Positions 4,162 to 19,054 of a stretch of DNA of 64,000 bases are shown in pieces. Below the pieces are notes generated by a model that made no database searches, was not told where the DNA came from, and saw nothing but the letters and a program-made list of their open reading frames with translations. This stretch comes from a virus. The stretch spans positions 8,626 to 72,625 of IMG/VR virus record IMGVR_UViG_3300002835_000134. One strand, 5' to 3'. The translations under genes were made by a program, and so were the position numbers. Within the stretch, counting starts at the first letter, position 1; every line of letters starts with the position of its first letter.

Positions 4162-5991
4162 ATGTCAACAAAAATTCTATTTAGAAGAGATACATCTATA
4201 AACTGGACAACAGTAAACCCAGTTTTACTTTCAGGTGAAATCGGTATTGAAACCGATACATATAAATTTAAAATAGGTAATGGTTCTAGATGGAACCAGC
4301 AATCATTTTATGCATTTAAAGTAGGCGCAGCTAATGGTGTTGCAACGCTTGGCGCAACTGGAAAAGTTCCAATTTCTCAATTGCCAGATTATGAGTCAGT
4401 TAATACTGAAGTACAGGCAGTAGTTGATGCAAAGTTTAGCACTCAATCAACAAGCAATTTATCAGAAGGATCTAACTTATACTTTACAAATGCAAGAGCG
4501 CTTGCTGCTAATGCATCAGCAATTTCTAATGCTGCCACCGCTGAATCGGTAGCAAGAAGCTCAGCAATTGCAGCAGCCAAAGCAGAAGCAATTGCAGCAG
4601 CAGAAACTTCATCGACATCAGCAATTGCAGCAGCTAGAGCAGGAATTTTAACAGAAGCTTATTCAGATGCTACAAACATAGCAGGATCACTTGTTACACA
4701 GGAAGCAGCAGCAAGATCTTTAGAAATAACTGCAGCAATAGACGAAGAGGTGTCAGATAGAAATAGTGCAATAAATACTGCAATTTCTAATGAAATTATT
4801 AACAGAAATATTGCAATAAATTCTACGACTACAACTCAAATTGCAGAAGGAACTAATTTATACTTTACAGACGCCAGAGCAAAAGCAGCTGTTGCATCAG
4901 ATATTGCTACAGCCACAGCAAGCGTTTCCCTGACAGGGAAAACAACAAATCACCTTGCAGAAGGCACATTAAATAAATACTTTACAGATGCCAGAGCTTT
5001 ATCTGCAACAAACTCAAAGTTTACACAAGCAACAATTTACACAAATACGGTAGCAGAAGAATTAAGAGCAGAAATTGCAGCAGCCTATGTAACAAATCCA
5101 TCGTTATCTAACCAGCTAGGAGCATATGTTTCTGAAGGAGATAAAGATCAGCCAGGAGGATACGCTGGCTTAAACAATTCTTCTCAAATTTTAGAGTCAG
5201 TTATTCCATCAACAATTGCAAGAACGACAGACATTACAACAGCAATTGCAAATGTTGTTAATTTAGCCCCAGACTCACTAAATACTTTAGGTGAGCTTGC
5301 AACTGCTTTTCAGGCAGATCAAAGCGGTCTTGCAGCATTAGTAACTACAGTAGGAACAAAATTAGACTCATCCGTAGCTGCTACAACATATGCACCAAAA
5401 GCAAATCCAACCTTTACAGGAACAGTCGCTGGAATTACAAAGACTCACGTAGGCCTAGGAGATGTTGATAACACATCAGATATAAATAAGCCAATTTCAA
5501 CGGCAGTAAATACCGCTCTAGATCTCAAGGCTCCATTAAATAGCCCTGTATTTACTGGGGCTATAGATTTTACTGGAGTGGATGTAACTGGATTAACAGC
5601 AATTGCAGGACTTCCAGATCAGACATCACATTCTAATAAATTTTTAATGACTAATGGCTCTAGCCCTAGCTGGGAAACTTTAGACGTTTCTGCTTTAGCA
5701 CCACTAGCAAACCCAACATTCACAGGAACAGTTTCATTTACAAATGCCACTGTTAACTTTAGTGATTCTTCAATACCAAGCGCAGCATTAGAAGGCGTAA
5801 TCCCAAATACTAAATTAGAAAAATCTTCTATCGGTATTAACGGAAACGTGGTTTATCTAGGAGACGTAGTAACACTTGGAGGATATTCAAATGCCGCCAG
5901 CCCTAATGCACAAAACAAAATATTGTATGGAACTTCTGTTGATGCGCCAGCTGGCACATACGTAGCAGGAGACATTTACATTCAATACTAA
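4162..5991 (+). CDS. Fibre protein with Mtd_N/hyaluronidase-like N-terminal domain
   Basis: RRDT..NW...NPVL..GEIG.ETDT.KFKIGNG; EG.NLYFT.ARA repeats; P..LNTL.ELA motif. Confidence 0.75.
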   Translation: MSTKILFRRDTSINWTTVNPVLLSGEIGIETDTYKFKIGNGSRWNQQSFYAFKVGAANGVATLGATGKVPISQLPDYESVNTEVQAVVDAKFSTQSTSNLSEGSNLYFTNARALAANASAISNAATAESVARSSAIAAAKAEAIAAAETSSTSAIAAARAGILTEAYSDATNIAGSLVTQEAAARSLEITAAIDEEVSDRNSAINTAISNEIINRNIAINSTTTTQIAEGTNLYFTDARAKAAVASDIATATASVSLTGKTTNHLAEGTLNKYFTDARALSATNSKFTQATIYTNTVAEELRAEIAAAYVTNPSLSNQLGAYVSEGDKDQPGGYAGLNNSSQILESVIPSTIARTTDITTAIANVVNLAPDSLNTLGELATAFQADQSGLAALVTTVGTKLDSSVAATTYAPKANPTFTGTVAGITKTHVGLGDVDNTSDINKPISTAVNTALDLKAPLNSPVFTGAIDFTGVDVTGLTAIAGLPDQTSHSNKFLMTNGSSPSWETLDVSALAPLANPTFTGTVSFTNATVNFSDSSIPSAALEGVIPNTKLEKSSIGINGNVVYLGDVVTLGGYSNAASPNAQNKILYGTSVDAPAGTYVAGDIYIQY

Positions 5992-6005: not shown

Positions 6006-9000
6006 TTGCCATTTAAAATTTTTGACGGGTCCTCTTGGTTGCCGTCCAAAAAAATTAAAGTCGTAACGGGTGCAGGCCCACAAGACTATAAGAAGGCATT
6101 TATTTTTAACGGAACATCATGGGTAGAAATATTAGAAAAGCCAAAAAAGCTAACAGATCCAACTTTATCATATTCAAGAACAGATGAGTTTAAAGGAGTT
6201 GGACAAACAGTAACCTCTACAAATGGAACTTGGGAAGGTAGTCCAACATCTTACAAGTACCAGTGGGAAAAGGGAATATATGCTGGGGCAGAGATCAACT
6301 GGTCAGAAATTACTGGGGCAACACAAAATAGTTTCCTATTAACTGGAGATCTAGTTGGATATAAAATTAGATGCGCTATTATTGCTACAAATAATGCAGG
6401 TGACAGCGAAAAAGCTTATGGGACATCTGCATTCATCATGTTGCCTGAATTCATTCAAACAATAACTGCATTTGTGCAGCAAGATAGTGTCGGATATATA
6501 AACGGAAAAATTAGAGTATTTTGGGATATATCTGAAGGCGCAGACGGATATGAAATAATTTATCAAGGTCCAGGAATTCCAAATACTGTAGTAAGAATTA
6601 CAGGACAAGGAAACAACCTTTGGGACTTTGATTTCGGAGCTAATAATTTAGACGATCTTATTGGATTAACGACTGTTGGGATATCTATAGCTCCATATAA
6701 CAACACATCTTCTGCCGCTGCGGCATACAGAGCGGCAATTGGAAGCAATGAAACTGAAACCTTAAAGCTTTACCAAAACGCAAGCATTAATAATTTAAAT
6801 CCCTTATTGCCATCATTAACTGCAACTGTTTATCAAAATCCTGGAGGAGTAGATGATCAGGCTGGAATTATTGATTGGTCTTTGATTAATATAACACAGA
6901 CGAGATATGAAATTTACTCAGAGTGGCCAGACGGAAGTCCGTTTGGTCCATTTGCTATGGCAACTAGAGATGCCACATCAAGCTTTATAACAAATTATAC
7001 ACCAGGCTCAACGTCTGGACCATGGAAAGTTCGTGTATATGGAACATCACGAGGATATCGTGGAACACCTACAGTTGTAGACTTCTTTAATCCAACACAA
7101 GAATATTATTGGGAATCAGATTCAGGCTCATTCGTATCTTCTTCTGTAAAACCAGTTTCTAGCACTCCACCAACACTAACCCCTACTGGGGATGTAGGTT
7201 CTGGAATAACTATAACTGCAAATCAAGGAGAATGGACAAACACTCCAACCTCTTACAATATAAATATTATGAAGCTTAGCCCACTAACAATTGTAGCAAG
7301 CGGTACAACAAGTGCTACTTATACAACAACCCAGCAAGACCTTACAGACCAGGCAGAGTTTAAGGCATATGCTACTGCAACAAATAGTGCTGGTACAAGC
7401 TTAACAGCAGAGTCTACAACTACAACAAGATGCTTTACCGCAAGCACAATTCCAAGTGGAGGAGTAGCTAATATATTTGGTAGCGGACAAGTAGGCACTA
7501 CAATTTCAATGAGCACTACTGGATGGTCTACTGGTAGCGGTCTACCACTTGGTTACAATACAACTTTACAAAAAATGGACGGCCAGGCAAATTATGTTGA
7601 TATGGGAGTTACTTCTTATGTAGTAACAGCAGCAGATTTATCCAACTACATATCTAAAGGAGGAGGATCTTTTCCTCAAATGTTTAGAGCTAAAGCAAGT
7701 GCATATAACTCTGCAGGAACATCAGATCCAGTTTATTCTAGCTCCATTACTGCAAGTGCTTCAACCTTTATTGTTCCTAATTTTGTTGGAGGTTCAGTTC
7801 CTTCAAGCACCAGCCAATATACAATTTCTAATGGCGGACAAGGAAACTTTACATCTAACCTTTCTTCAGTTGGATTAGTATCATCACAGTCCCCAGCTGC
7901 TGGTACAACAGCAAATGTTGGATCAACAATTACTGTGTATACATACGCATACCAGGCAGCTGGAGTTGCTCCATCAGGAGGACAGGCATCGATATCTGGA
8001 ACTGGAGTTGTTGGAACAACTATAACAGCTGGAATTTTAACAGCAGCTACAGGAACTCCAACACCAACTTCATCAATTCAACTTCAAGCAAGTGATTCAA
8101 ACTTAAACTTTGTAGACACAGGAAGCACAAGTGTAACAGTAACACAGGCAGACGTAGAAGTATATATTAGCAAGGGTGGAGTATCAGCTCCAAGACAATG
8201 GAGAGCAAAGCTTGTTTCGACAAATGCTAGTGGTACAGAAACAGTCTACACTGGTTCTATTTCTGCTTCTGCTGCAGTTATATCACCTACTTTCCCAACC
8301 TTCCCAACCTTCCCAACTTTCCCAACCTTCCCAACATTTAAGGCGCCATCTTTCCCAACGTTCCCAACTTTCCCAACCTTCCCAACTTTCCCAACGTTCC
8401 CAACTTTCCCAACGTTCCCAACGTTCCCAACATTTAAGGCGCCATCTTTCCCAACGTTCCCAACATTCCCAACGTTCCCAACGTTCCCAACGTTCCCAAC
8501 GTTCCCTTACTTCCCTGCATTTAAGGCGCCATCTTTCCCTACTTTCCCTACCTTCCCTACCTTCCCAACGTTCCCAACATTCCCAACCTTCCCAACCTTC
8601 CCTGAATTTAAAGCAAGTAAATCTTGTTTAGAAGCAAATACCAGGTTGCTAACATTAAATAATGGTTATGTTGCAGCAAAAGATATATCAATTGGAGATA
8701 AACTAGTTTCTATTTCAGCAGCAGACTTCGGCAATCAATCAATGAAGTTCTTTAATGTCAATAAAGATGTAAATCTTGTAGGCGTTGAAGTTATTAAATC
8801 TGAAATGTCAACAAAGGATGTTCTTTCATTCAACGGAACAGAAAAGTATTTCTCTTACGGACAGCCAATATTTATTAAGCAAGACGGACTTGCAACATGG
8901 GTAGAAGCGGGATCGGTAAAAATTGGAGATACTCTATTAACAATAGACGGCTCTACAATAAATGAAGTTTTGGTTAACTCCATAGAGACAGATACTGATA

Positions 9001-9071
9001 AAGAAGTATACGATATCAGGACACTAGAAAACCAGTGGTTTATTGCAGAAGGATTTATTGTAATTAGTTAA
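6006..9071 (+). CDS. Large virion/adhesin protein: Ig-like repeats, PASTA-like domain, (PxF)34 repeat, C-terminal Hint domain
   Basis: TTG start after GGAG; GTWEGSPTSYKYQW-type Ig repeats; VPNFVG...VSSQSPAAGT; CLEANT...VYDI...FIAEGFIVIS. Confidence 0.75.
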   Translation: MPFKIFDGSSWLPSKKIKVVTGAGPQDYKKAFIFNGTSWVEILEKPKKLTDPTLSYSRTDEFKGVGQTVTSTNGTWEGSPTSYKYQWEKGIYAGAEINWSEITGATQNSFLLTGDLVGYKIRCAIIATNNAGDSEKAYGTSAFIMLPEFIQTITAFVQQDSVGYINGKIRVFWDISEGADGYEIIYQGPGIPNTVVRITGQGNNLWDFDFGANNLDDLIGLTTVGISIAPYNNTSSAAAAYRAAIGSNETETLKLYQNASINNLNPLLPSLTATVYQNPGGVDDQAGIIDWSLINITQTRYEIYSEWPDGSPFGPFAMATRDATSSFITNYTPGSTSGPWKVRVYGTSRGYRGTPTVVDFFNPTQEYYWESDSGSFVSSSVKPVSSTPPTLTPTGDVGSGITITANQGEWTNTPTSYNINIMKLSPLTIVASGTTSATYTTTQQDLTDQAEFKAYATATNSAGTSLTAESTTTTRCFTASTIPSGGVANIFGSGQVGTTISMSTTGWSTGSGLPLGYNTTLQKMDGQANYVDMGVTSYVVTAADLSNYISKGGGSFPQMFRAKASAYNSAGTSDPVYSSSITASASTFIVPNFVGGSVPSSTSQYTISNGGQGNFTSNLSSVGLVSSQSPAAGTTANVGSTITVYTYAYQAAGVAPSGGQASISGTGVVGTTITAGILTAATGTPTPTSSIQLQASDSNLNFVDTGSTSVTVTQADVEVYISKGGVSAPRQWRAKLVSTNASGTETVYTGSISASAAVISPTFPTFPTFPTFPTFPTFKAPSFPTFPTFPTFPTFPTFPTFPTFPTFPTFKAPSFPTFPTFPTFPTFPTFPTFPYFPAFKAPSFPTFPTFPTFPTFPTFPTFPTFPEFKASKSCLEANTRLLTLNNGYVAAKDISIGDKLVSISAADFGNQSMKFFNVNKDVNLVGVEVIKSEMSTKDVLSFNGTEKYFSYGQPIFIKQDGLATWVEAGSVKIGDTLLTIDGSTINEVLVNSIETDTDKEVYDIRTLENQWFIAEGFIVIS
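8286..8612 (+). repeat. 9-nt coding tandem repeat (CCN-ACN-TTY; Pro-Thr-Phe), 34 PxF triplets in blocks of 6/10/9/9, each followed by Lys-Ala
   Basis: Read directly from sequence and translation. Confidence 0.95.
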
Positions 9072-9117
9072 TAAATAATGCTGTATAATATACACATAGG
9101 CAGTAAAAGGAGGAAAA

Positions 9118-9666
9118 ATGGCTACCAGCTTTCCAACAAGTAAAGATAACCTCTCTAATCCATCTGCAAATGATGAGCTTACGGGACATGCGGCACAACA
9201 TACAAATGCCAATGATGCAATTGAGGCACTAGAAACAGTAGTAGGTGTAACTGGATCAACAGATTCAAACTCTATCACATATAAGGTTAACCTTATAAAT
9301 GACACACTGGTTTCAATGACAAATGCAACAGATGCAATTTCAACCCTTTTTGGCCTTGAAGGCAACAACGACCTAACAGTCAATGGAATTGAGAATAAGA
9401 CAACTATAGATAGCTTCCAGGCGTCAGACTATAGAACAGCTACCTATTCTCTTCAGATAAGTCGTGGAACAGAGTATTATTTCTCTAATATCAGCGTTCT
9501 ACACGACTCCACAAACATATACGTTTCAGAATCAGACATAGTCTCAAATACGAACAACAATCTTGCCAACGTATTGTTTGAACAATCCAATGGTATAATT
9601 AATCTAACGGTCACACCAGTTTCAACGGCTGTAACGGCTAGATATTTTAGAACGGCATTAAAGTAA
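9118..9666 (+). CDS. Putative virion structural protein
   Basis: MATSFPTSKD.L.NP...HA.QH.N.NDAIEALE N-terminus; C-terminal YRTA.Y..QI domain shared with the next gene. Confidence 0.6.
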   Translation: MATSFPTSKDNLSNPSANDELTGHAAQHTNANDAIEALETVVGVTGSTDSNSITYKVNLINDTLVSMTNATDAISTLFGLEGNNDLTVNGIENKTTIDSFQASDYRTATYSLQISRGTEYYFSNISVLHDSTNIYVSESDIVSNTNNNLANVLFEQSNGIINLTVTPVSTAVTARYFRTALK

Positions 9667-9693
9667 ATAAAGCAGTAAGAGGAGTCATAAAAT

Positions 9694-11133
9694 ATGGCAA
9701 TTGTAAATAAAAACTTTAGAGTAAAGAATGGTCTTATTGTCGACGGTTCCGTCGCAACAGTAAATGGCTATAATGTATTAACAGAGGCATCAACAGCTTT
9801 TATTATCTCAACAATTGGCGGATCAGCAGATAGCGCAAACACTCCTAATTCTGTTGTTAAGCGTGATGGAAATGGAAACTTTGCTGCAGGCACAATTACA
9901 GCAACCTTCCTAGGCAACGTAACTGGTGACGTAACAGGTACAGTTTCAAGCATTTCAAATCATGACACAAATGATTTAGTAGAAGGAACAGGCGCAGGTT
10001 CAAATCTATATTTTACTAATGCAAGAGCATTAGCAGCCACAGCAGCAGCATACGATGCAGCAGGTTCAGCAGCAGCAGCACAAGCAAATGCAGCAACAGA
10101 TGCAACATCAAAGGTTGCAGCAGAAGCTACAGCACGTACTTCAGCAATTGCATCAGCAATTGCTACAGAGGTTGCTGATAGAAATACCGCAATTGCAACT
10201 GCCAAATCAGAAGCAATTTCTGCAGCAGCAGCAGACGCCACAACTAAGGCTAACGCAGCGCAAGCAGCAGCATCAGCAGACGCCACAACTAAGGCTAACG
10301 CAGCGCAAGCAGCAGCAGAGGCTACCGCAGCAGCAGCTCTTTCAACTGCAATATCAACAGAAGTTTCAGCTCGTAATACAGCAATTTCAACTGCAGTAGA
10401 TTCATTAGTAGATGGAGCACCATCTCTTCTTAACACATTAAATGAATTGGCAGCAGCAATAAATGACGACGCTAATTACACAACAACTCTTACATCAGCA
10501 TTAGCTACAAAGGCTAATTCAACTGATGTTACAGCATCAATTGCAACCGCAGTAAGCACTGCATCATCTGACGCTACAACCAAGGCTAACGCAGCCCAAG
10601 CAGCAGCAGAGGCAACAGCAGCAGCAGATGCTACAGCAAAGGTTTCAGCAGAAGCAGCCCTAAGAGTATCTGGCGATTCAGCTTCAGTTGCAACAGCAGC
10701 AGCAGATGCTACATCTAAGGCTAACGCAGCGCAAGCAGCAGCAGAGGCAACAGCACAATCTGCTCTAAATGCAGTCAAGGATGGAACTACAAAGTTTACA
10801 GCAGTAAATGTAAACGATGTGGCTGTAGTAAAAGCAGCAACCACAACAGTATCATCAGCAAGCACTGTAAATGCTCTTACATGGGCAGCAGCAGATTATC
10901 GTACAGCTAAGGCTCTTGTTAAGTTCAAGAATGGAGCAAATACTCAAGTTTCTGAGATCTTGCTCACACTTGATACCAGCAATAACGTGGCAATAACAGA
11001 ATTTGGTTCAATTGGAACCAACGGAGATCTAGGCTCAATTTCAGCAGCCTATGTTTCAGGAAATGTTTCAATATCAGTAACCACAGTATATGCCTCGACA
11101 GATGTCATGGTATATGCAACATTAATTAAATAA
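9694..11133 (+). CDS. Ala-rich fibre protein
   Basis: ADATTKANAAQAAA repeats, P.LLNTLNELAAA motif, C-terminal YRTAK domain. Confidence 0.7.
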   Translation: MAIVNKNFRVKNGLIVDGSVATVNGYNVLTEASTAFIISTIGGSADSANTPNSVVKRDGNGNFAAGTITATFLGNVTGDVTGTVSSISNHDTNDLVEGTGAGSNLYFTNARALAATAAAYDAAGSAAAAQANAATDATSKVAAEATARTSAIASAIATEVADRNTAIATAKSEAISAAAADATTKANAAQAAASADATTKANAAQAAAEATAAAALSTAISTEVSARNTAISTAVDSLVDGAPSLLNTLNELAAAINDDANYTTTLTSALATKANSTDVTASIATAVSTASSDATTKANAAQAAAEATAAADATAKVSAEAALRVSGDSASVATAAADATSKANAAQAAAEATAQSALNAVKDGTTKFTAVNVNDVAVVKAATTTVSSASTVNALTWAAADYRTAKALVKFKNGANTQVSEILLTLDTSNNVAITEFGSIGTNGDLGSISAAYVSGNVSISVTTVYASTDVMVYATLIK

Positions 11134-11199
11134 TTAAATAACAAGGTATGGGGTCCTTTCAAAACCCCAACAAAACAATTAGGGGATATGTGAACTTAA

Positions 11200-11571
11200 A
11201 TGGCAACAGTAGATAAAAACTTCAAGGTAAAAAATGGCCTTAATGTAGCAGGTGCTGCCACTTTTGGTGCAGCAGTAAATGTAGAAAACTTAGTCTTAAA
11301 TTCAACCCCCCTAGCTTTTGACTCTTCAACTGGACGACTAAAAATCCAGATTGGCGGAGTTTGGAAAGAAATTGCTCTATTAGTAGATGCACAAGAAGAC
11401 CCAACAGCACTGACATTCATGGACATTGGTTTGGCTATCGATTACGATGGCTCACCAGTTTATAGCGTCTTTGCCAATGGAGTAAACACCGTAGCAACAA
11501 AGTTTGCCGATGGTGGAAGCTATACAACAGATACATTTAGCTACACATTCGATTCTGGAACAATTGCTTAA
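11200..11571 (+). CDS. Putative fibre-associated protein
   Basis: N-terminus MATVDKNFKVKNGL nearly identical to that of 9694..11133. Confidence 0.55.
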   Translation: MATVDKNFKVKNGLNVAGAATFGAAVNVENLVLNSTPLAFDSSTGRLKIQIGGVWKEIALLVDAQEDPTALTFMDIGLAIDYDGSPVYSVFANGVNTVATKFADGGSYTTDTFSYTFDSGTIA

Positions 11572-11632
11572 TTGTTTTGGAATTATTGTGATGCTATAAT
11601 TACCAAATAAGTCTAAATAAGGGGTGGCATAA

Positions 11633-13828
11633 ATGTCAACAGTAAGAATTCAAGTAAGAAGAGGAACCGCCTCACAGTGGACCTCCGTAAATCCAATTTT
11701 GGCAGCGGGAGAAATGGGTGTCGAGTCAGACACAAACTTATTTAAGTTTGGTAACGGTACCTCAACATGGACCGCTCTTGCATATGCTAACAATTCAGAC
11801 GTAGCAATAGCAGAAATTTCACAGGATGCTATTAATAATGCCCTTTCATTAGGCGCAGGACTTTCAAAAACATACAATGACGGCGCAAACTCAATCACAA
11901 TAACTGTTGATTCAAATGTTGTTGCACTCAAGTCATATGTAGATGCAGCAGTAACAAGTTTATCAAACACAGTAGATGCAGATTATCTTCCAGTATCTGA
12001 TCGTGGTGTTGCAGGTGGAGTAGCTTCACTTAACAATAGCGCATTGATACCAGACAATCAAATCAATGAGTCATTCTGGGCAACAAAGCTTGATGTTGCT
12101 TCACTAAGCTCAGGACTTCAGATTAAGGGTTCAGTTCGTGTAGCATCAACAGAAAACTTTGCAGCAACCAGAGCAGCTGGAACAGCAGATGCATCAGGTG
12201 GAAACGGAGTAGGAGAAACATTAACAGCCTCTGCAAATGGAGCACTTTCAATTGATGGTGTTACAGTAAATGCAGGAGACAGAGTTCTTCTTAAGAATCA
12301 AACAGATGCAAAGCAAAATGGTATTTATACAGTAACAAACGCAGGTGGATCTTCAGCAGCAGCAGTTTTAACTCGTGCAACAGATTCAGATAACAGCGTA
12401 GACGGAGAAGTCAGAGAAGGCCTCTTTACCTTTACACAAGATGGAACTGCAAATGCTCGTGACGGATATGTTCTTCTAACAGAAGGCTCTAGAGCAGGAG
12501 AAATCTTCCAGCTTGGAACAGACTCCCTTAACTTCACACAGTTTACAGGAGCAATACCAGTAACAGTAGGAGCTGGCCTAACAAATTATAATGATCAAAT
12601 AATTGTAGATTTTGAAACAGTTGCTCAAAAGTCTACTCTAGATACATTTATTTCATCAACAGCAACTAACTTTACTAACAACACTTCAACACTTAACAGC
12701 TTAGATGCAAGACTTGATCAAGCCGAAACAGATATAGACGCAGTTCAGCTGTATGGCCCAAGACTAACAATAGCTGAAGAAGACATTACAGCTATCAAGG
12801 CTTTAAATGTTACACAAACTGATAATATTGCTAATTTAACATCAGTTAATGGAACCCAATCAACAGCTATCACAGCCATTGAAACAAAGAATACAGATCA
12901 AGATACTCTTCTTGCCACACATACAGCAGATCTTGCTACTAAGGGTGAGCAGATTACAGCAATTCAAGGAATTAATGCCACACAAGCTTCTGATATTACT
13001 GCAATCAACACATCAATAACATCAATTAATACAAACTTAGCTCCAAAAGCATCACCTACATTTACAGGAACAGTTGTTCTTCCAGAAACAACCTCAATTG
13101 GAAATGTTGATGCAACTGAGATATCTTATGTAAATGGTGTTACTTCAGGAATTCAGGCACAAATTGATACAAAGCTTGCAACAGCAACAGCAGCATCTAC
13201 ATATGAAACAATTTCAAATGTAGCGCTAAAAGCACCACTAGCAGATCCAACATTCACAGGAACTGTATCTGGTGTCACAAAAGCACATGTAGGGCTTGGA
13301 AACGTTGATAATACATCAGATGCATCAAAGCCAGTATCTACAGCTCAGGCAGCAGCGATTGCTACTGCAAAATCAGAAGCTCTTGCAGAAGTTACAGCAG
13401 TAATTGCTGGCGCTCCAGGAGCACTGAATACTCTTGATGAGCTTGCAGCAGCTTTAAATGATGATGCTAACTTTGCTTCAACTGTAACAACAGCAATTGC
13501 TACTAAGGTTAATTCATACACCACAGTAGTAAACAGAACAGCAAACTTCGGAATCAACGATGCAGACTACAAGGACGCATGGTTAGATGTAGATGCTACT
13601 GGAGACATTACAATTACAGTTCCAGCAGACGGAACAAACTCACGGACATATCCAGTTGGAACATCATTCGATATATTTAGAGCCAACACAGGAAATGTAA
13701 CAATTGCAGGTTCAGGAGCAACAGTTAATGGAACTCCAGGATTAAAGTTGAGAGCACGGTACTCTTCAGCAACATTGTTTAAGAGATCAGCAAACACATG
13801 GGTCCTTATCGGAGACCTAACAGCTTAA
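11633..13828 (+). CDS. Fibre protein with Mtd_N-like N-terminus
   Basis: QVRRGTASQW...NPILAAGEMG.E.DT..FKFGNG; IDGV....GDRVLLKNQTD.KQNGIY; terminal W.LIGDL. Confidence 0.75.
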   Translation: MSTVRIQVRRGTASQWTSVNPILAAGEMGVESDTNLFKFGNGTSTWTALAYANNSDVAIAEISQDAINNALSLGAGLSKTYNDGANSITITVDSNVVALKSYVDAAVTSLSNTVDADYLPVSDRGVAGGVASLNNSALIPDNQINESFWATKLDVASLSSGLQIKGSVRVASTENFAATRAAGTADASGGNGVGETLTASANGALSIDGVTVNAGDRVLLKNQTDAKQNGIYTVTNAGGSSAAAVLTRATDSDNSVDGEVREGLFTFTQDGTANARDGYVLLTEGSRAGEIFQLGTDSLNFTQFTGAIPVTVGAGLTNYNDQIIVDFETVAQKSTLDTFISSTATNFTNNTSTLNSLDARLDQAETDIDAVQLYGPRLTIAEEDITAIKALNVTQTDNIANLTSVNGTQSTAITAIETKNTDQDTLLATHTADLATKGEQITAIQGINATQASDITAINTSITSINTNLAPKASPTFTGTVVLPETTSIGNVDATEISYVNGVTSGIQAQIDTKLATATAASTYETISNVALKAPLADPTFTGTVSGVTKAHVGLGNVDNTSDASKPVSTAQAAAIATAKSEALAEVTAVIAGAPGALNTLDELAAALNDDANFASTVTTAIATKVNSYTTVVNRTANFGINDADYKDAWLDVDATGDITITVPADGTNSRTYPVGTSFDIFRANTGNVTIAGSGATVNGTPGLKLRARYSSATLFKRSANTWVLIGDLTA

Positions 13829-13852
13829 CAAATAAAATTATAGGAGATATAA

Positions 13853-15328
13853 ATGGCAAATAAAAGAGTAGGTATTCAATCTTCGGCTCAGGACAACTTC
13901 CTTGAGCCAAATGCAGTCACATCTTTAGCTTCCACTGCCGTAAATGGTGGAGCAAGCGGAAGTGGATCAGTAAACCTAACTTGGTCTTTACCAGCTGCAT
14001 CTCCACCAGCAACACTTTATACAATTACATCAACTCCAGCAACAACAACACAAAGTACCACAGGAACTTCTTTTACTTTTCCTGGCTTAACTGGAGGAAC
14101 TTCTTACACATTTACTGTAGTAGCATCAAATGCAGCAGGAAATAGCTTACCAGCTACTTCCCCTGCAGCTACTCCAACTACTTTGCCAAATGCGCCATCA
14201 GCGCCAACAGCATCTTCTCCAAATGCTAATCAGGACACAGTTTCCTGGGCAGCACCATCTGATTTAGGAGGAACTCCAAACACTGGATACATCCTTAAGT
14301 CTTCTGATGGACCAACATATAATCTTGGTGCAGGAGTAACATCAACAACAATTAATGAAACAGCTGGAACAGCTCAGACTTATCAAGTTCTTGCAAAGAA
14401 TGCAAATGGTGATGGCCCATATTCAACTTCATCAAATAGCGTTACTACAACAGCACCATACTTCCCACCGTTCTTCCCATTCTTCCCACCGTTCTTCCCA
14501 TTCTTCCCGTTCTTCCCACCATACTTCCCACCGTTCTTCCCATTCTTCCCGTTCTTCCCACCATACTTCCCACCGTTCTTCCCATTCTTCCCGTTCTTCC
14601 CACCATACTTCCCACCGTTCTTCCCATTCTTCCCGTTCTTCCCACCATACTTCCCACCGTTCTTCCCATTCTTCCCGTTCTTCCCACCATACTTCCCACC
14701 GTTCTTCCCATTCTTCCCGTTCTTCCCACCATACTTCCCACCGTTCTTCCCATTCTTCCCGTTCTTCCCACCATTCTTCCCGCCTGGGTTTGGACCGTTC
14801 TTCCCACCAGGGTTCGGACCGTTCTTCCCACCGTTCTTCCCACCAGGGTTTGGACCGTGGTTTAAGTCTAAGTTTTGTATTGAAGAAGACTCAGAGGTGT
14901 TAACTTCAAATGGATACATCTTAGCAAAGGATGTAAAGGTTGGAGATGTACTTCTCACAATTGATCCATCCGAACTAAATAATGGAGATATGACTTCAGA
15001 TATAGTTCTAAGAGATAAGGTAACACTTAGCGAGACAACTGTTGTCAAGCATGAATTAAGTCAAAAAGATTTAATTAAGTTCAACGGCTCTGAGACACTA
15101 TTCTCAGAAGGACAGCCAATCTTTGTAAAAGAAGGCGACTTAATTAAATACAAGGAGACTGGACAGGTTCAAGTTGGAGACATACTTGTAACCCTAAGAG
15201 TAGAATCTTGCGAGATAATATTCGAGACAGTTGACACTATTGAAAAGCTTCCAGCAAAGGATGTCTATGACATAAGATGCGAGCCATCACAATGGTTCAT
15301 AGCAGGAAACTACATAGTAATATCTTAA
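13853..15328 (+). CDS. Fibronectin type III x2, Pro/Phe repeat, C-terminal Hint domain
   Basis: LTW..P..GLT.GTSYTFTV.A.N..G FN3 pattern twice; CIEEDS...VYDI...FIAGNYIVIS. Confidence 0.8.
   Translation: MANKRVGIQSSAQDNFLEPNAVTSLASTAVNGGASGSGSVNLTWSLPAASPPATLYTITSTPATTTQSTTGTSFTFPGLTGGTSYTFTVVASNAAGNSLPATSPAATPTTLPNAPSAPTASSPNANQDTVSWAAPSDLGGTPNTGYILKSSDGPTYNLGAGVTSTTINETAGTAQTYQVLAKNANGDGPYSTSSNSVTTTAPYFPPFFPFFPPFFPFFPFFPPYFPPFFPFFPFFPPYFPPFFPFFPFFPPYFPPFFPFFPFFPPYFPPFFPFFPFFPPYFPPFFPFFPFFPPYFPPFFPFFPFFPPFFPPGFGPFFPPGFGPFFPPFFPPGFGPWFKSKFCIEEDSEVLTSNGYILAKDVKVGDVLLTIDPSELNNGDMTSDIVLRDKVTLSETTVVKHELSQKDLIKFNGSETLFSEGQPIFVKEGDLIKYKETGQVQVGDILVTLRVESCEIIFETVDTIEKLPAKDVYDIRCEPSQWFIAGNYIVIS
14456..14863 (+). 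repeat. Coding tandem repeat: six 42-nt units (PPYFPPFFPFFPFF) plus degenerate flanks and PPGFG units
   Basis: Unit CCACCATACTTCCCACCGTTCTTCCCATTCTTCCCGTTCTTC read directly. Confidence 0.95.
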
Positions 15329-15420: not shown

Positions 15421-16167
15421 ATGACTAATATACAGGATGACTGGTTTGAAAAAGATAGGTCTGAAACTTCTTCAAATAGAAAAGCAGACGTAATGTTTGG
15501 GGACATTAAAGTAACCAATGAGGCGTTAGGCTTAGACCTATATAACAATGCATTAGACCAAACGAGAATACAGTGGTACATAGATACACTAGAAAAGAAT
15601 CTAAAGCCAGGAACTAAGTATCATTGGAACGAAGCCCGTGTAACAAATTCAGATCAGCCAATTAAAAAGGCTAGAGACTGTGTTGATTTTAAGATGAACT
15701 ACAGCACACTTGGCGGTAAACAGAATGAAGAAAATGCTGAGCTATGGCAAGTCTATGATGAAATTTATAAAAAGCTTAAGTCTTGTGTTGATCACTACTG
15801 CAGGTACTGGGGAATTAATGTAACATATTACGAGGTATTTAATTTTGTAAAGTATGAAGGCGAAGGCAAAGAGTTTAAGATTCATGCAGACGATGGCCCA
15901 ATGTACAAGGCAGCTGTGTCAGCAGTGATTTACTTAAATGACGACTATGAGGGTGGAGAGATCTATTACCCACGAATGGACAATAAGACAATTAAGCCAA
16001 AGCAAGGAGACATAGCAATCTTTCCTTCTAATTACATATATGAACATGCGTCTCTTCCTATAAAGTCTGGAACAAAATATTGCGTTGTTATAATGATGGA
16101 TTTAAATGATATGGCCCACCAGGGACATATTCAAAATGCTGCTGCTGCAGCATCTTCACCGTACTAA
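15421..16167 (+). CDS. 2OG-Fe(II) oxygenase, prolyl 4-hydroxylase-like
   Basis: HADD...YLNDDYEGGE...FPS..YEH...GTKY. Confidence 0.88.
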   Translation: MTNIQDDWFEKDRSETSSNRKADVMFGDIKVTNEALGLDLYNNALDQTRIQWYIDTLEKNLKPGTKYHWNEARVTNSDQPIKKARDCVDFKMNYSTLGGKQNEENAELWQVYDEIYKKLKSCVDHYCRYWGINVTYYEVFNFVKYEGEGKEFKIHADDGPMYKAAVSAVIYLNDDYEGGEIYYPRMDNKTIKPKQGDIAIFPSNYIYEHASLPIKSGTKYCVVIMMDLNDMAHQGHIQNAAAAASSPY

Positions 16168-16175
16168 GGAGAAAA

Positions 16176-16913
16176 ATGGAAACGATAGACCCAGCTCAAG
16201 AAATTAAAAAGCTGCAAGACCAAAAGTATATTAGCGAATGGGAAGCAGAGCAGCACAGACCAATCAAGCAGACCTGGACAGAAAAAATTGATCTAGGAAA
16301 CGGAATCTGGTGCTATAGAAATGTATTGCCAGCAGGTAGAAACATCCCAGAAAGACTTGAAGAAATCCTTGCAGCAAAAGATAATCAGTATGAGTGGATG
16401 CCAGCTTACGTGGGCTACCAAGAAAGAATGCCAGACTATAGAGATTGTGTTGACTTTAAATACAAGAAGACAGATATCTATGGAGAAAAAGAAGCAGACA
16501 ATAAGCTGAGAGAAATTTGGCAAGAGTGCTATGACCCTCAATACCAAGCAGTTCGTGACTATTGTAGAATATATAACATTCATAATTTAAGATACTGGGA
16601 AGCATTTAACTTTATTAGATACGAGCCTGGAAATCACTTTATGGAGCACCACGACCATGGCTATTCATACAACTGTACAGTTTCACTTGTAGGATATTTC
16701 AATGACGACTATGAGGGTGGAGAGCTTTACTTTAGACTGCAAAATCTAAACCTTAAACCACAAGCAGGAGACCTGTTTATTTTCCCTTCAAACTTTATGT
16801 ATCCTCATCAAGCTAAAAAGGTTGTATCAGGAACTAAATATTCAATAGTAACAATGCTAGACTATAGCGCCAAATTCCATACACAAGAAATGTTTATTGA
16901 GACAGGTGACTAA
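16176..16913 (+). CDS. 2OG-Fe(II) oxygenase, prolyl 4-hydroxylase-like
   Basis: HHD...YFNDDYEGGE...FPSNFMYPH...GTKY. Confidence 0.88.
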   Translation: METIDPAQEIKKLQDQKYISEWEAEQHRPIKQTWTEKIDLGNGIWCYRNVLPAGRNIPERLEEILAAKDNQYEWMPAYVGYQERMPDYRDCVDFKYKKTDIYGEKEADNKLREIWQECYDPQYQAVRDYCRIYNIHNLRYWEAFNFIRYEPGNHFMEHHDHGYSYNCTVSLVGYFNDDYEGGELYFRLQNLNLKPQAGDLFIFPSNFMYPHQAKKVVSGTKYSIVTMLDYSAKFHTQEMFIETGD

Positions 16914-17644
16914 TGAGTAATAAAATAAATGCCTACAGAACTTCTCCAACCGCTTTTGTTGTAGAACCTCTATCAGTAGTAAGAGACTGGATGGATGCGA
17001 CCTTTGATAAACACGCATACCATTGTTTTCCAGTAACCCTTGCAAACACTATAGGCTGGGGTATTTCTGCAAAAACTGATATTAAGTTTATTTGGGATGG
17101 AATTAATGACCACTCTGGAGATCATGTAAAGATACTAGAAGGAGAAGGTCTTTGCTATACAGGCAGGGGACAATCAACTTTAAGCTTTAATACAAACTTA
17201 AAATTTGTCACCGATAAAAATATAAGCTTGTTGGCTGTAAACCCTCCAAATTTCTTTAATAAAGATTTTGAAGTTATTTCATCTGTCATATCCACTTCTT
17301 TTTATCCACACCCATTGCCTCTTGCAATAAAAGCTTTAACTGCTAACAAAGAAATTACTATAAAAGCAGGACAAGTAATTGCAGCAATTATACCTCTGTC
17401 ATTAGGACAGCTAAAAGATTCTACTATAAACGTTGATGATTATGTTAGCGATCCAGTTGCTGAAAAAGCAGCTAAGGATTATGGAAATGCATCTGCAGTA
17501 AAAACTGCTTTAGGTGAGTGGACTGATTGGTATAGAGATGCAATAAATGAAAAAGGCGAATCTGTCGGAGAGCATGAAGTTAAAGCATTAAAGCTTAAGA
17601 CTGTATACGTTAAAGACGGGAAACAGTGTGGCACTAACGATTAA
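16913..17644 (+). CDS. DUF6065-like protein
   Basis: RDWMD....HAYHCFP...AN..GW N-terminal motif and I.AG..IA.IIP C-terminal motif, recognised from memory of the family. Confidence 0.6.
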   Translation: MSNKINAYRTSPTAFVVEPLSVVRDWMDATFDKHAYHCFPVTLANTIGWGISAKTDIKFIWDGINDHSGDHVKILEGEGLCYTGRGQSTLSFNTNLKFVTDKNISLLAVNPPNFFNKDFEVISSVISTSFYPHPLPLAIKALTANKEITIKAGQVIAAIIPLSLGQLKDSTINVDDYVSDPVAEKAAKDYGNASAVKTALGEWTDWYRDAINEKGESVGEHEVKALKLKTVYVKDGKQCGTND

Positions 17645-18356
17645 ATTCGTATCAAATAGACCATGGCTTAACAAAGACAGTAAATCAAAACCAGAACCAA
17701 TTATTAAAAGTATTCCAGACTGGTATAGAAAAGCTGACAGATTTGCAAAAAAGCCAGATGGAGAATACTGGGAAAATCCAGGGGGTGGCAAGATGCCTAC
17801 TTGGAAAGCATGTCCAGCAATATTTGACATAATGGGTACAGGTTATACATTAAAGACTCCATGCGATATAGAATTTTTTGAAGGAGACTTCGGCGCTATA
17901 AGCTGTAAAATTAAAGATAAAAAGTATGAAGATTTTTGTTCTGTAAGACCGCCTATGCCACAGTTTAAACATCCACAGGGATATCATGAAACACATTTTG
18001 CGTGGTTTTCAGATTGGGCTATAGAAACTCCTCCAGGTTATAGCGTATTGTATTCACAGCCTTTTAATAGATTTGAATTGCCATTCCTCACTACTTCAGG
18101 AATCATTGATAATGACAATGTTAATTTGCCAGGCTCAATGCCGTTCTTTCTAGTAAAGGGATTCTCTGGCATTTTGCCAGCAGGCACTCCTTATGCACAA
18201 ATGTTTCCCTTTAAAAGAGAAGATTGGCAACATGAAATAGTAATTGAAAAAGCATCTAATTTAAGAAAAAAGAATATGGATAATTCAGCAAAATATAGAA
18301 AGCCAGACGGCGGTATCTATAAAAATGAAGTTTGGTCTAAAAGGACCTACTCTTAG
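17628..18356 (+). CDS. DUF6065-related protein
   Basis: PDWY...TWKACP...D....GY; TPPGYS; GIID.D; AGTP.AQ.FPFKR..W; commonly sits beside phage oxygenases. Confidence 0.55.
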   Translation: MALTIKFVSNRPWLNKDSKSKPEPIIKSIPDWYRKADRFAKKPDGEYWENPGGGKMPTWKACPAIFDIMGTGYTLKTPCDIEFFEGDFGAISCKIKDKKYEDFCSVRPPMPQFKHPQGYHETHFAWFSDWAIETPPGYSVLYSQPFNRFELPFLTTSGIIDNDNVNLPGSMPFFLVKGFSGILPAGTPYAQMFPFKREDWQHEIVIEKASNLRKKNMDNSAKYRKPDGGIYKNEVWSKRTYS

Positions 18357-18373
18357 GATGGTATAATAAATAT

Positions 18374-19054
18374 ATGGATAAAAAAGCAGCCAGTAATTGG
18401 GGATGGGATGAAAGAGTTTCAATAACTCCTTCAGGTTTCTTTGGAAACTCTCCAGACAATATTCAATCTAGAGAAAACATAATGACTCTAGAAGAGCACA
18501 AGTTTCTTTTGGAAGCAGCTCGATCTATTGAAGAGTGGGACATAACAGAGACACATTACAATGAAAATGGAACAGTAATTTACGACTCAACCTACTGGGA
18601 TAATCGTGTTGCATCAAGACCGATCCTAGATAAAATTAATCCAGAGATATCAGTAGTTATTGAAAGAATAGTGGCAAGGCTTAAAAAAGAAGTTGATGAA
18701 TACTTTAATGTTGATGCACTCCCAACAAGCCCAGCAATCGTTAGATGGCTTCCAGGATACAGACAAGAGCCACACGCAGACAAAGAGTTGCACACTGGTC
18801 CAGATGCTGGCAAACCAAACGATTTCCCTTACTATGATCTTTCAGGATTGTTTTATTTAAACGATGATTATGAGGGTGGCGAACTTTATTTCCCAAATCA
18901 AGGCATAGAGTTTAAGCCTAAGCCTGCAGCAGGATACTTTTTCCCAGGAGACATGAATTATATTCACGGCGTAAAAGAAATAACAAGCGGAATTAGATAT
19001 GTAATTCCTTTCTTCTGGACCATATTGAAGCATACAGGAGATAAGCAGCCATGA
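18374..19054 (+). CDS. 2OG-Fe(II) oxygenase, prolyl hydroxylase-like
   Basis: HAD...YLNDDYEGGE...HGV...GIRY; leaderless start (TATAAT-N6-ATG). Confidence 0.88.
   Translation: MDKKAASNWGWDERVSITPSGFFGNSPDNIQSRENIMTLEEHKFLLEAARSIEEWDITETHYNENGTVIYDSTYWDNRVASRPILDKINPEISVVIERIVARLKKEVDEYFNVDALPTSPAIVRWLPGYRQEPHADKELHTGPDAGKPNDFPYYDLSGLFYLNDDYEGGELYFPNQGIEFKPKPAAGYFFPGDMNYIHGVKEITSGIRYVIPFFWTILKHTGDKQP

What the first reader, a model, noticed from the sequence alone, without database searches (positions are those of the whole stretch)
8625..15328. Two terminal Hint domains with identical non-canonical catalytic substitutions
Seen: the domains at 8625..9071 (148 aa) and 14876..15328 (150 aa) keep Cys1, the block-A pattern (C....T/S.V/LLT..G...AKD+.+GD.L) and block-F VYD. 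Both carry S-x-G-Q-P where block B is normally T-x-x-H-P, Q-W-F where block F usually has H-N/T-F, and end in I-V-I-S-stop instead of V-H-N. Established: without the terminal Asn or a C-extein, splicing and C-terminal cleavage are impossible. Inference: this is a distinct Hint subfamily limited to N-terminal thioester formation (hedgehog-like adduct transfer, cross-linking to another virion protein, or triggered cleavage). Alternatively it is a folding/solubility chaperone for the hydrophobic repeat. The same changes in two diverged paralogues suggest selection rather than decay.
Basis: partly seen in the sequence, partly recalled or inferred. Interest (0 to 1): 0.75.

Follow-up and report, generated by a model that had tools for sequence, protein, structure and literature searches.

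The report
Self-cutting Hint caps on phage fibres
Two fibre-region proteins of an uncultured phage each end in a greasy phenylalanine/proline repeat capped by a real but unusual intein-like (Hint) domain that most likely cuts itself off; the family is large and I found no paper on it, but no chemistry has been shown.

Summary
Window 8625-9071 and 14876-15328 encode the last 148 and 150 residues of two ORFs (1021 and 491 aa). They are 42% identical (E 4e-39). Both start with Cys, have S-x-x-Q-P where inteins have T-x-x-H, and stop at the position of the intein terminal Asn.

AlphaFold2 gives a confident model (pLDDT 90.4). Foldseek matches it to inteins, Hedgehog HhC and BIL domains.

The domains belong to a large phage family that no Pfam Hint model reaches at its cut-off:
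- 385 cluster representatives at E<=1e-3.
- 62 IMG/VR loci.
- Nearly always the order is variable N-terminal domains, an aromatic/proline repeat, a short linker, then a terminal Hint.

In a sample retrieved through the N-terminal FN3 part alone, 81 of 81 Hint caps keep a position-1 nucleophile (75 Cys, 6 Ser). Twelve of 93 orthologues have no Hint; five of those end at the repeat. dN/dS is 0.06-0.07.

Gln at block B is the family norm (40 of 60). Q-W-F and I-V-I-S are clade features; relatives end V-H-N-K.

Best reading: a self-removing BIL-like cap. Cleavage has not been shown. This is a new variant of a known kind.

The parts
6006..9071 (+). ORF of 1021 aa (P0001): N-terminal fibre-like and Ig-like region with one PASTA match, an FPT repeat, a linker and terminal Hint domain d1
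   Evidence: PASTA E 4.1e-5, 23.9 bits against a cut-off of 23.2. Homologues of 932-976 aa with the same architecture.
8289..8611 (+). Tandem DNA repeat (units of 9, 18 and 87 nt) encoding (FPT)n with interspersed FKAPS
   Evidence: Tandem Repeats Finder; translation.
8625..9071 (+). Hint domain d1 (148 aa plus stop): Cys1, S-Y-G-Q-P at block B, VYDIR, QWF, ends IVIS
   Evidence: Sub-threshold Pfam matches to Intein_splicing (E 1.7e-4) and PT-HINT (E 5e-4). dN/dS 0.068 against L013.
13853..15328 (+). ORF of 491 aa (P0002): conserved N-terminal peptide, two FN3 domains, an aromatic/proline repeat, a linker and terminal Hint domain d2
   Evidence: fn3 E 8.8e-13. In the full-length AF2 model, residues about 20-200 and 341-491 are confident, and the repeat (201-340) has pLDDT of about 40.
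14453..14875 (+). Aromatic/proline tract (residues 201-341; FFPFFPFFPPYFPP-type units), ending in the linker ..PWFKSKF before Cys1
   Evidence: Translation. Low-confidence coil in AF2.
14477..14781 (+). Near-perfect 42-nt tandem repeat, 7.3 copies at 99% identity. It is the variable-copy core of the tract.
   Evidence: Relatives with >=91% identity over the queried Hint region are 397-449 aa long, in steps of 7 or 14 aa for the main series (407, 414, 421, 435, 449).
14876..15328 (+). Hint domain d2 (150 aa plus stop): Cys1, S-E-G-Q-P at block B, VYDIR, QWF, ends IVIS
   Evidence: AF2 pLDDT 90.4, pTM 0.84. Foldseek PDB matches to inteins, Hedgehog and BIL at probability 1.00. dN/dS 0.06 against L005.
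15421..16913 (+). Two 2OG-Fe(II) oxygenase genes (15421-16167 and 16176-16913) directly downstream. They are possible modifiers of the proline-rich tract; this is inferred, not shown.
   Evidence: PF13640 E 4e-12 and 3.2e-13. Homologues lie within the locus in 42 of 62 related loci, typically starting under 100 nt after the Hint gene's stop.
18374..22129 (+). Five more PF13640 oxygenase paralogues: 18374-19054, 19051-19926, 19926-20690, 20587-21534 and 21500-22129

Best explanation
Each domain is a BIL-like, Hedgehog/intein-fold autoprocessing module fused to the C-terminal end of a phage fibre-region protein.

Proposed mechanism:
1. Cys1 attacks the peptide bond that links it to the last residue of the aromatic/proline repeat (an N-to-S acyl shift).
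2. The conserved block-B Ser, with Gln taking the place of the usual His, assists this step.
3. The resulting thioester is resolved, most likely by water.
4. The 16-kDa Hint cap is released, and the mature protein ends in the repeat with a free C-terminus.

There is no C-extein and no terminal Asn, so splicing and C-terminal cleavage are excluded.

The cap's purpose is probably to keep the very hydrophobic repeat soluble or unassembled until the protein is folded or mounted. This would be a removable cap, analogous in logic to the Peptidase_S74 chaperone on the collagen-like fibre of the same phage.

Shown: the fold, the residue pattern, conservation, selection, architecture, and the existence of cap-less orthologues.
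Inferred: that cleavage happens, that water is the acceptor, and the purpose.
For: Fold:
- AF2 pLDDT 90.4, pTM 0.84.
- Foldseek against PDB gave 60 matches at E<=0.001. The printed matches are inteins, Hedgehog HhC or BIL domains: 6rpq E 1.4e-7, 1at0 TMq 0.74, 4o1r TMq 0.76, 2lwy, 6y75.
- The domain profile hits the C. thermocellum BIL sequence 2lwy at E 9.9e-7.

Catalytic nucleophile:
- Among 150 best representatives, all 98 alignments that reach profile position 1 have Cys.
- All 63 domains in 62 IMG/VR loci start with Cys.
- In a sample retrieved through the FN3 N-terminus only, so not biased by the Hint, 81 of 81 Hint caps have Cys (75) or Ser (6) at position 1. An exchange between the two competent nucleophiles is what catalysis predicts.
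- Block-B position 7 is Ser or Thr in 59 of 60.

Selection:
- dN/dS is 0.06 for d2 and 0.068 for d1, against 0.126 for the FN3 part.

Dispensable in the product:
- 12 of 93 tract-bearing orthologues lack the Hint. Five stop at the end of the repeat (..PPRFGFRY) and six carry a short Cys-rich tail instead.

Parallel in the same phage:
- ORF 22137-23390 is a collagen-like fibre with a C-terminal Peptidase_S74 chaperone domain (E 8.1e-13).

Literature (passages read):
- The block-B His can be dispensable.
- Tko CDC21-1 lacks it, and bulky -1 residues can compensate. The -1 residue of d2 is Phe.
- Type A and type B BILs mostly cleave rather than splice.
Against: - No experiment or proteome shows cleavage for any member.
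- His B:10 is described as the most conserved intein residue and is essential in many inteins (passages). Here it is Gln, which cannot act as a general acid.
- The block-F Asp is kept in the window's clade but in only 22 of 60 representatives.
- Whole Hint cassettes have been swapped, leaving an intact displaced copy downstream in G001 and in L065.
- The two caps within one genome tend to resemble each other: 59-80% identity in five of eight genomes, against about 30-35% between lineages.
- That pattern is more typical of a specificity-bearing tip than of a throw-away cap.
- I could not inspect model coordinates, so the active-site geometry around Cys1 and Gln80 is unchecked.
Confidence: 0.6

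Rival explanations
1. Thioester transfer. The Hint domain forms the thioester, but the acyl group (the fibre's C-terminus) is passed to a specific nucleophile. Candidates are a lysine of another virion protein, a host envelope amine or hydroxyl, or a lipid. The fibre would end up covalently attached, as Hedgehog is attached to cholesterol.
For: - The same residue evidence for thioester formation applies as in the best explanation.
- Cassette swapping with displaced orphans suggests a type-specific partner.
- The two caps within a genome are similar to each other.
- G001 carries the same new cassette type on both proteins, although the two copies differ by dS 0.8.
- Six orthologues replace the Hint with a Cys-rich tail, another chemistry able to cross-link.
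- Gln instead of His could slow spontaneous hydrolysis (inference).
Against: - Five orthologues end at the bare repeat with no reactive group.
- The protein stops at the end of the Hint fold, so there is no extra acceptor-binding region such as the Hedgehog sterol-recognition region (the comparison with Hedgehog is recalled knowledge).
- No acceptor candidate was identified.
Confidence: 0.15
2. A non-cleaving tip domain. The Hint fold has been co-opted as a permanent distal knob of the fibre, for example for receptor binding or assembly, and stays attached.
For: - C-terminal position on fibre-region proteins next to Mtd_N-type fibre genes.
- Cassette exchange with displaced copies, as is common for receptor-binding tips.
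- The canonical His and HN are lost.
Against: - The position-1 nucleophile is kept in 81 of 81 caps, including Cys-to-Ser exchange.
- Ser/Thr at B:7 is kept in 59 of 60. A binding knob has no need for either.
- Orthologues without any cap exist.
- The most conserved positions are those of Hint blocks A, B and F.
Confidence: 0.15
3. An eroding remnant of a BIL or intein with no present function.
For: Loss of His B:10, of the block-F His and of the terminal His-Asn.
Against: - dN/dS 0.06-0.07.
- 385 cluster representatives.
- Conserved architecture in 62 of 63 domains in the loci.
- Even the displaced G001 copy shows dN/dS 0.19.
Confidence: 0.03

Closest known systems
Type A bacterial intein-like (BIL) domains, e.g. 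Clostridium thermocellum BIL (PDB 2lwy)
   Same: - Best sequence match among solved structures (E 9.9e-7) and a Foldseek match (TMq 0.69).
- N-terminal Cys, a Hint fold of about 140-150 aa and no +1 nucleophile.
- Cleavage dominates over splicing (passage in PMC4031507).
- More distant family members end in V-H-N plus 1-25 residues, as type A BILs do.
   Different: - The window's domains have no His-Asn and nothing after the domain.
- Block-B His is replaced by Gln.
- They are always terminal, follow an aromatic/proline repeat, and are phage-encoded.
- They are not reached by the Pfam Hint models at their cut-offs.
Hedgehog C-terminal autoprocessing domain (HhC, PDB 1at0)
   Same: - A C-terminal Hint with Cys1 and no C-extein, acting only on the N-terminal junction.
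- Foldseek E 9e-7, TMq 0.74, TMt 0.76.
   Different: - No region after the Hint fold that could bind an acceptor. The sterol-recognition region of Hedgehog is recalled knowledge.
- Gln replaces the His of T-x-x-H.
- 11% sequence identity.
- The setting is bacterial-virus, not metazoan.
Type B BIL domains and the Tetrahymena BUBL BIL2 (PDB 6y75)
   Same: - Hint domains without intein block G that carry out cleavage uncoupled from splicing (passage).
- Foldseek TMq 0.68-0.69.
   Different: Membership by sequence motifs was not tested, because no type-B model was at hand. The context differs: bacterial secreted proteins or ciliate polyubiquitin loci.
CDC21-1 inteins (PDB 6rpq, the top Foldseek hit) and the engineered Ssp DnaB M86 H73A / G-1F intein (PDB 6fre)
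   Same: - Precedents for an N-S acyl shift without the block-B His.
- Tko CDC21-1 uses a compensating Lys, and bulky -1 residues can compensate (passages in PMC4031507 and PMC6333167).
- Both 6rpq and 6fre are among the Foldseek hits.
   Different: - These are true splicing inteins inside host proteins.
- The Pho CDC21-1 chain itself aligns a His to Q80.
- No natural family with conserved Gln at B:10 was named in the passages I read.
Peptidase_S74 intramolecular chaperone auto-cleavage domain of phage fibres
   Same: Same logic: a C-terminal self-removing domain after a repetitive fibre segment. It is present in this very phage on the collagen-like ORF 22137-23390.
   Different: Unrelated fold and chemistry. 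The Ser-Lys cleavage and trimeric chaperone role are recalled knowledge. The window's domains show no S74 match.
Pretoxin HINT (PT-HINT, PF07591) of polymorphic toxins
   Same: Weak Pfam similarity (d1 E 5e-4, 20.8 bits). Cassette displacement with downstream orphans resembles polymorphic-toxin loci.
   Different: The score is below the gathering cut-off of 27.7. No toxin domain follows, because the Hint is the last domain.

Membership tests
Hint (Hedgehog/intein) fold superfamily | All-beta Hint fold of about 140-150 residues | tested here: met
   AF2 pLDDT 90.4, pTM 0.84. Foldseek probability 1.00 to inteins, HhC and BILs, TMq 0.64-0.76.
Hint (Hedgehog/intein) fold superfamily | Nucleophile (Cys, Ser or Thr) as the first residue of the domain | tested here: met
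   Cys1 in d1 and d2. 81 of 81 caps in an independently drawn sample have Cys or Ser.
Class 1 intein | Block B T-x-x-H with His at B:10 | tested here: not met
   S-x-x-Q in both domains. Q80 aligns to the His of 2lwy, 2jmz and 6rpq.
Class 1 intein | C-terminal (His-)Asn followed by a C-extein that starts with Cys, Ser or Thr | tested here: not met
   Both ORFs stop after ..IVIS at the position of His-Asn.
Type A BIL | N-terminal Cys/Ser, C-terminal His-Asn, and no +1 nucleophile | tested here: not met
   The window's domains lack His-Asn. 31 of 60 family representatives keep HN followed by 0-25 residues, for example VHNK. The family is therefore related, but the window's clade is a derived form.
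Type B BIL | Hint domain without an intein-like block G, with the type-B sequence motifs | tested here: inconclusive
   The lack of block G is met. No type-B motif model was available to test. The definition is taken from a passage in PMC4031507.
Hedgehog Hog domain | Hint module followed by a sterol/adduct-recognition region | tested here: not met
   The protein ends at the last Hint strand. PF01079 does not appear among the Pfam hits.
PT-HINT (PF07591) | Pfam gathering score, and a toxin domain downstream | tested here: not met
   20.8 bits against a cut-off of 27.7 for d1, and no hit for d2. Nothing follows the domain.
Peptidase_S74 intramolecular chaperone | A match to the S74 domain | tested here: not met
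   No PF13884 hit on P0001 or P0002, while ORF 22137-23390 has one.
Autoprocessing activity (any Hint) | Demonstrated cleavage at the X|Cys1 bond | not testable with these tools
   This needs expression and mass spectrometry. No isolate carries the family: tblastn of d1 and of P0058 against 50,697 phage records gave no match.

The most novel reading that the evidence does not exclude
The Hint cap is a ligase-like warhead rather than a throw-away cap. The Gln-for-His active site would hold a slow, poised thioester at the fibre's C-terminus. That thioester would then be captured by a specific nucleophile on the virion or on the host envelope, making a covalent bond. Phages would thus use Hedgehog-type chemistry for covalent assembly or irreversible adsorption. 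Matched cassette types on the two fibre proteins of one genome would reflect a shared acceptor.
Probability: 0.13. Interest if true: 0.9.

Novelty: new variant of a known kind. Interest (0 to 1): 0.6.

Why it matters
For Hint and intein biochemistry:
- This is a large natural family, under purifying selection, in which the residue described as the most conserved in inteins (His B:10) is usually Gln, sometimes Glu, and in one subclade His.
- That makes it a ready-made natural experiment on how the N-S acyl shift is catalysed.
- The domain is small (148-150 aa), needs no C-extein and has no Asn to mutate. If active, it could serve as a compact C-terminal cleavage or thioester-generating tag.

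For phage biology:
- It would be a second, chemically unrelated route, besides Peptidase_S74, to self-removing caps on fibre proteins.
- It is tied to an undescribed aromatic/proline repeat with variable copy number.
- It sits beside an array of seven prolyl-hydroxylase-like oxygenase genes in phages of what are probably abundant freshwater actinobacteria.

Tried and rejected
- **Trimer test.** Complex prediction with three copies of d2, to test a trimerising-chaperone reading, returned 'no answer' (score 0.00, controls not run). It says nothing either way.
- **First alignment for the exhaustive search.** It mixed whole proteins with domains, and hmmbuild would have modelled 665 positions. I dropped it for the domain-only alignment A3.
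- **Isolated phages.** tblastn of d1 and of P0058 against the phage-record collection gave no match.
- **Cellular genomes.** The genome-contig scan failed with A4 because no stretch was conserved enough. With A3 it matched 600 patterns, but none encoded a relative. No prophage or cellular copy, and no host, was found that way.
- **Names.** The listing of cluster members gave no names or accessions for four members.
- **Decay.** Rejected by dN/dS.
- **Recent gene conversion between the two G001 cassettes.** Rejected, since their dS is 0.8.
- **Internal Cys1-Gln80 thioester, as in complement or TED adhesins.** Considered, but I could not measure distances because model coordinates are not exposed. 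There is nothing to support it.
- **Root of the family tree.** The tree has a weak backbone (29 of 61 inner branches open), so I draw no conclusion on whether the HN-less state arose once.
- **Literature.** Searches found no paper describing terminal Hint domains on phage fibre or proline-repeat proteins. One further search failed on syntax and was not repeated. Supplements were not consulted.
Full report
**1. The observation**

ORF 6006-9071 (1021 aa, P0001) and ORF 13853-15328 (491 aa, P0002) both lie on the + strand.

Each begins with Cys directly after a long aromatic/proline repeat and a Lys-rich linker:
- P0001: (FPT)n ... FKASKS|C.
- P0002: FFPFFPFFPPYFPP-type units ... WFKSKF|C.

Each has F-S-x-G-Q-P-I-F, V-Y-D-I-R and Q-W-F-I-A, and ends I-V-I-S-stop. 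The two domains are 42% identical over their whole length (BLASTP E 4e-39). They are the only copies in the window and in the 72.6-kb virus record that holds it. The description is accurate, and the similarity is far beyond chance.

**2. It is a Hint fold**

- Pfam gives only sub-threshold matches. For d1: Intein_splicing 21.9 bits against a cut-off of 35.8, and PT-HINT 20.8 against 27.7.
- AlphaFold2 on a seven-row alignment of d2 relatives gives pLDDT 90.4 and pTM 0.84, an all-beta model.
- Foldseek against the PDB returns 60 matches at E<=0.001. Those printed are inteins, Hedgehog HhC or BIL domains:
  - Pho CDC21-1 intein 6rpq, E 1.4e-7.
  - HhC 1at0, TMq 0.74.
  - Npu DnaB 4o1r, TMq 0.76.
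  - C. thermocellum BIL 2lwy.
  - Tetrahymena BIL2 6y75.
- A profile of the domain hits the 2lwy sequence at E 9.9e-7.
- The printed alignments place S77 and Q80 on the Thr and His of block B in three solved chains. They place Q-W-F on block F.
- The best BFVD matches are uncultured Caudovirales proteins named after FN3, PASTA or 'Hint domain'.

**3. Family survey**

Word-indexed searches found only close relatives of each protein. The exhaustive profile search found 385 cluster representatives at E<=1e-3, and 83 at E<=1e-10.

I aligned the best 150 to the profile:
- 98 alignments reach profile position 1, and all 98 have Cys there. This count is biased towards Cys by construction.
- 60 of the 98 have at least 40% F/Y/W/P in the 30 residues upstream. 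This is a lower bound, since several others score 30-37%.

Among these 60:

| Position | Residues |
|---|---|
| Block B position 7 | Ser 53, Thr 6, gap 1 |
| Block B position 10 | Gln 40, His 12, Glu 7, gap 1 |
| Following residue | Trp 30 |
| Block-F Asp | 22 of 60 |

The C-terminal ends of the 60 are:
- 19 stop at the end of the fold without His-Asn (18 of these have Gln at B:10).
- 12 end His-Asn plus 0-2 residues (typically V-H-N-K).
- 19 end His-Asn plus 3-25 residues.
- 10 are truncated or other.

So only the block-B Gln is a family trait. Q-W-F and I-V-I-S belong to the window's clade.

Other points from the survey:
- On a quick tree rooted with four canonical BIL-like hits, end type needs 3-5 changes against a shuffled mean of 17-21. 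B:10 needs at least 9 changes. His is concentrated in one subclade that also has the longer tails. The backbone is weak, with 29 of 61 branches open.
- Ten family members scanned against Pfam gave no Hint model above cut-off. The exceptions were the two distant canonical hits, P0097 and P0134.
- In IMG/VR, one degenerate block-B pattern retrieved 62 loci. Their 63 domains all start with Cys. 62 follow an aromatic/proline tract, as printed.
- No match was found in 50,697 phage records.
- No match was found in one scan of GTDB species genomes.

**4. A sample not biased by the Hint**

I searched with residues 1-200 of P0002 (the N-terminal peptide plus two FN3 domains). The search returned 230 proteins at E<=1e-10, of which the best 120 were listed. 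It covered lengths of 270-860 aa only.

- 93 of the 120 have an aromatic/proline tract. The other 27 are ordinary cellular FN3 proteins without a Hint.
- Of the 93, 81 carry the Hint cap:
  - 64 align from position 1 with Cys.
  - 11 more have Cys1 followed by an insertion of about 15 residues (C-I-D-G-E-T...).
  - 6 have Ser at the inferred position 1.
- So 81 of 81 keep a competent nucleophile.
- 12 of the 93 have no Hint:
  - Five end exactly at the repeat (..PPRFGFRY). One of these, on a 115-kb contig, has four member sequences.
  - Six carry a tail of 17-29 residues with four to eight cysteines in the last 40.
  - One looks frame-shifted.

This is the strongest argument that the finished protein does not need the Hint.

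**5. Selection and cassette dynamics**

| Comparison | dN/dS |
|---|---|
| d2, window vs L005 | 0.06 |
| d1, window vs L013 | 0.068 |
| FN3 part, window vs G001 | 0.126 |

In a related 69.6-kb contig (G001), both proteins carry a different Hint type (C-I-D-G-E-T ... S-x-T-Q-P ... K-W-F ... I-V-L-G). The old d2-type domain sits intact in a 193-aa ORF just downstream. blastn shows that homology to the window resumes exactly at the old Cys1 codon, after an insertion of about 630 nt. That orphan has dN/dS 0.19.

A second intact orphan follows the Hint gene in L065. Weak remnants follow it in L035 and L036.

They are 59-80% identical in five others. Between lineages the figure is about 30-35%. The two G001 cassettes differ by dS 0.8, so this is not recent gene conversion. 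I cannot explain this matching. It is the main point in favour of a type-specific partner.

**6. Context**

- The window is a phage structural region, with all genes on one strand:
  - Two Mtd_N-type fibre proteins, at 4162-5991 and 11633-13828.
  - Portal, protease and major capsid genes.
  - A collagen-like fibre with a Peptidase_S74 chaperone domain, at 22137-23390.
- The protease is 45% identical to those of Streptomyces and Rhodococcus phages. With 38.7% GC and a PASTA match, a low-GC actinobacterial host is plausible but not shown.
- Directly after P0002 lie seven PF13640 2OG-Fe(II) oxygenase paralogues, together with a DUF6065 gene (PF19541) and a further phrog_7084 paralogue. Oxygenase homologues lie in 42 of 62 related loci.
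- The tract of P0002 holds a 42-nt repeat of 7.3 copies at 99% identity. Relatives with >=91% identity over the queried Hint region are 397-449 aa, in steps of 7 or 14 aa for the main series.
- In the full-length AF2 model the tract is a low-confidence coil, with pLDDT of about 40.

**7. Mechanism and literature**

From passages of PMC4031507:
- Tko CDC21-1 lacks it and uses a compensating Lys.
- Type A BILs have His-Asn and mostly cleave.
- Type B BILs lack block G and only cleave.

From passages of PMC6333167:
- Bulky -1 residues can compensate for a missing block-B His.

The -1 residue is Phe in d2 and Ser in d1. Across the family it is mixed.

I therefore commit to Cys1-dependent N-terminal self-cleavage, with hydrolysis as the likeliest outcome and a removable-cap role, at 0.6. 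Transfer to a nucleophile and a permanent tip domain are each at 0.15.

Searches found no description of this family. I read only search listings, and passages of PMC3556154 and PMC5259590. Those passages concern terminase inteins.

**8. Earlier notes of this scan**

Eight AI notes on other genomes describe the same kind of module and reach the same reading. I saw them after forming mine. They are not independent evidence.

Noticed in passing
window 15421-22129: Seven tandem PF13640 2OG-Fe(II) oxygenase paralogues (prolyl-hydroxylase-like) sit directly after the proline-rich P0002, together with a DUF6065 gene (PF19541, 16913-17644) and a further phrog_7084 paralogue (17628-18356). The oxygenase at 19051-19926 also has a sub-threshold CDGSH zinc-finger match. 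Homologues follow the Hint gene in 42 of 62 related loci.
   Followed up: partly
window 22137-23390: A collagen-like fibre protein with a C-terminal Peptidase_S74 intramolecular chaperone domain (E 8.1e-13). The same phage therefore uses the classical self-cleaving cap on another repetitive fibre.
   Followed up: partly
L014 927-1508 (-) and L065 4466-4996 (+); weak remnants in L035 and L036 from 4486: Displaced but intact Hint cassettes with a short new leader, lying just downstream of a fibre gene that has acquired a different Hint type. This resembles the orphan C-terminal modules of polymorphic toxin loci.
   Followed up: partly
proteins P0213, P0246, P0248, P0263, P0267, P0274 (relatives, not in the window): Orthologues of P0002 in which the Hint cap is replaced by a tail of 17-29 residues with four to eight cysteines in the last 40. 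P0196 and P0198-P0201 end at the bare repeat.
   Followed up: partly
window 14477-14781: A 42-nt tandem repeat of 7.3 copies at 99% identity. Repeat copy number differs among relatives that are >=91% identical over the Hint region (397-449 aa, against 491 aa here).
   Followed up: partly
window 4162-5991 and 11633-13828: Two fibre proteins with an Mtd_N (major tropism determinant N-terminal) domain flank the first Hint-capped gene. I did not look for a diversity-generating retroelement.
   Followed up: no
window 9118-9666: A 182-aa ORF with no Pfam or PHROG match lies directly after P0001. Homologues occur in 14 of the 62 related loci; as far as I checked, these are the loci of the long-type Hint protein.
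   Followed up: partly
window 34470-42500: A 2676-aa ORF, possibly a tape-measure or other giant structural protein. Not examined.
   Followed up: no
window 10222-10318: A 45-nt alanine-rich tandem repeat inside ORF 9694-11133, a fibre-like protein.
   Followed up: no
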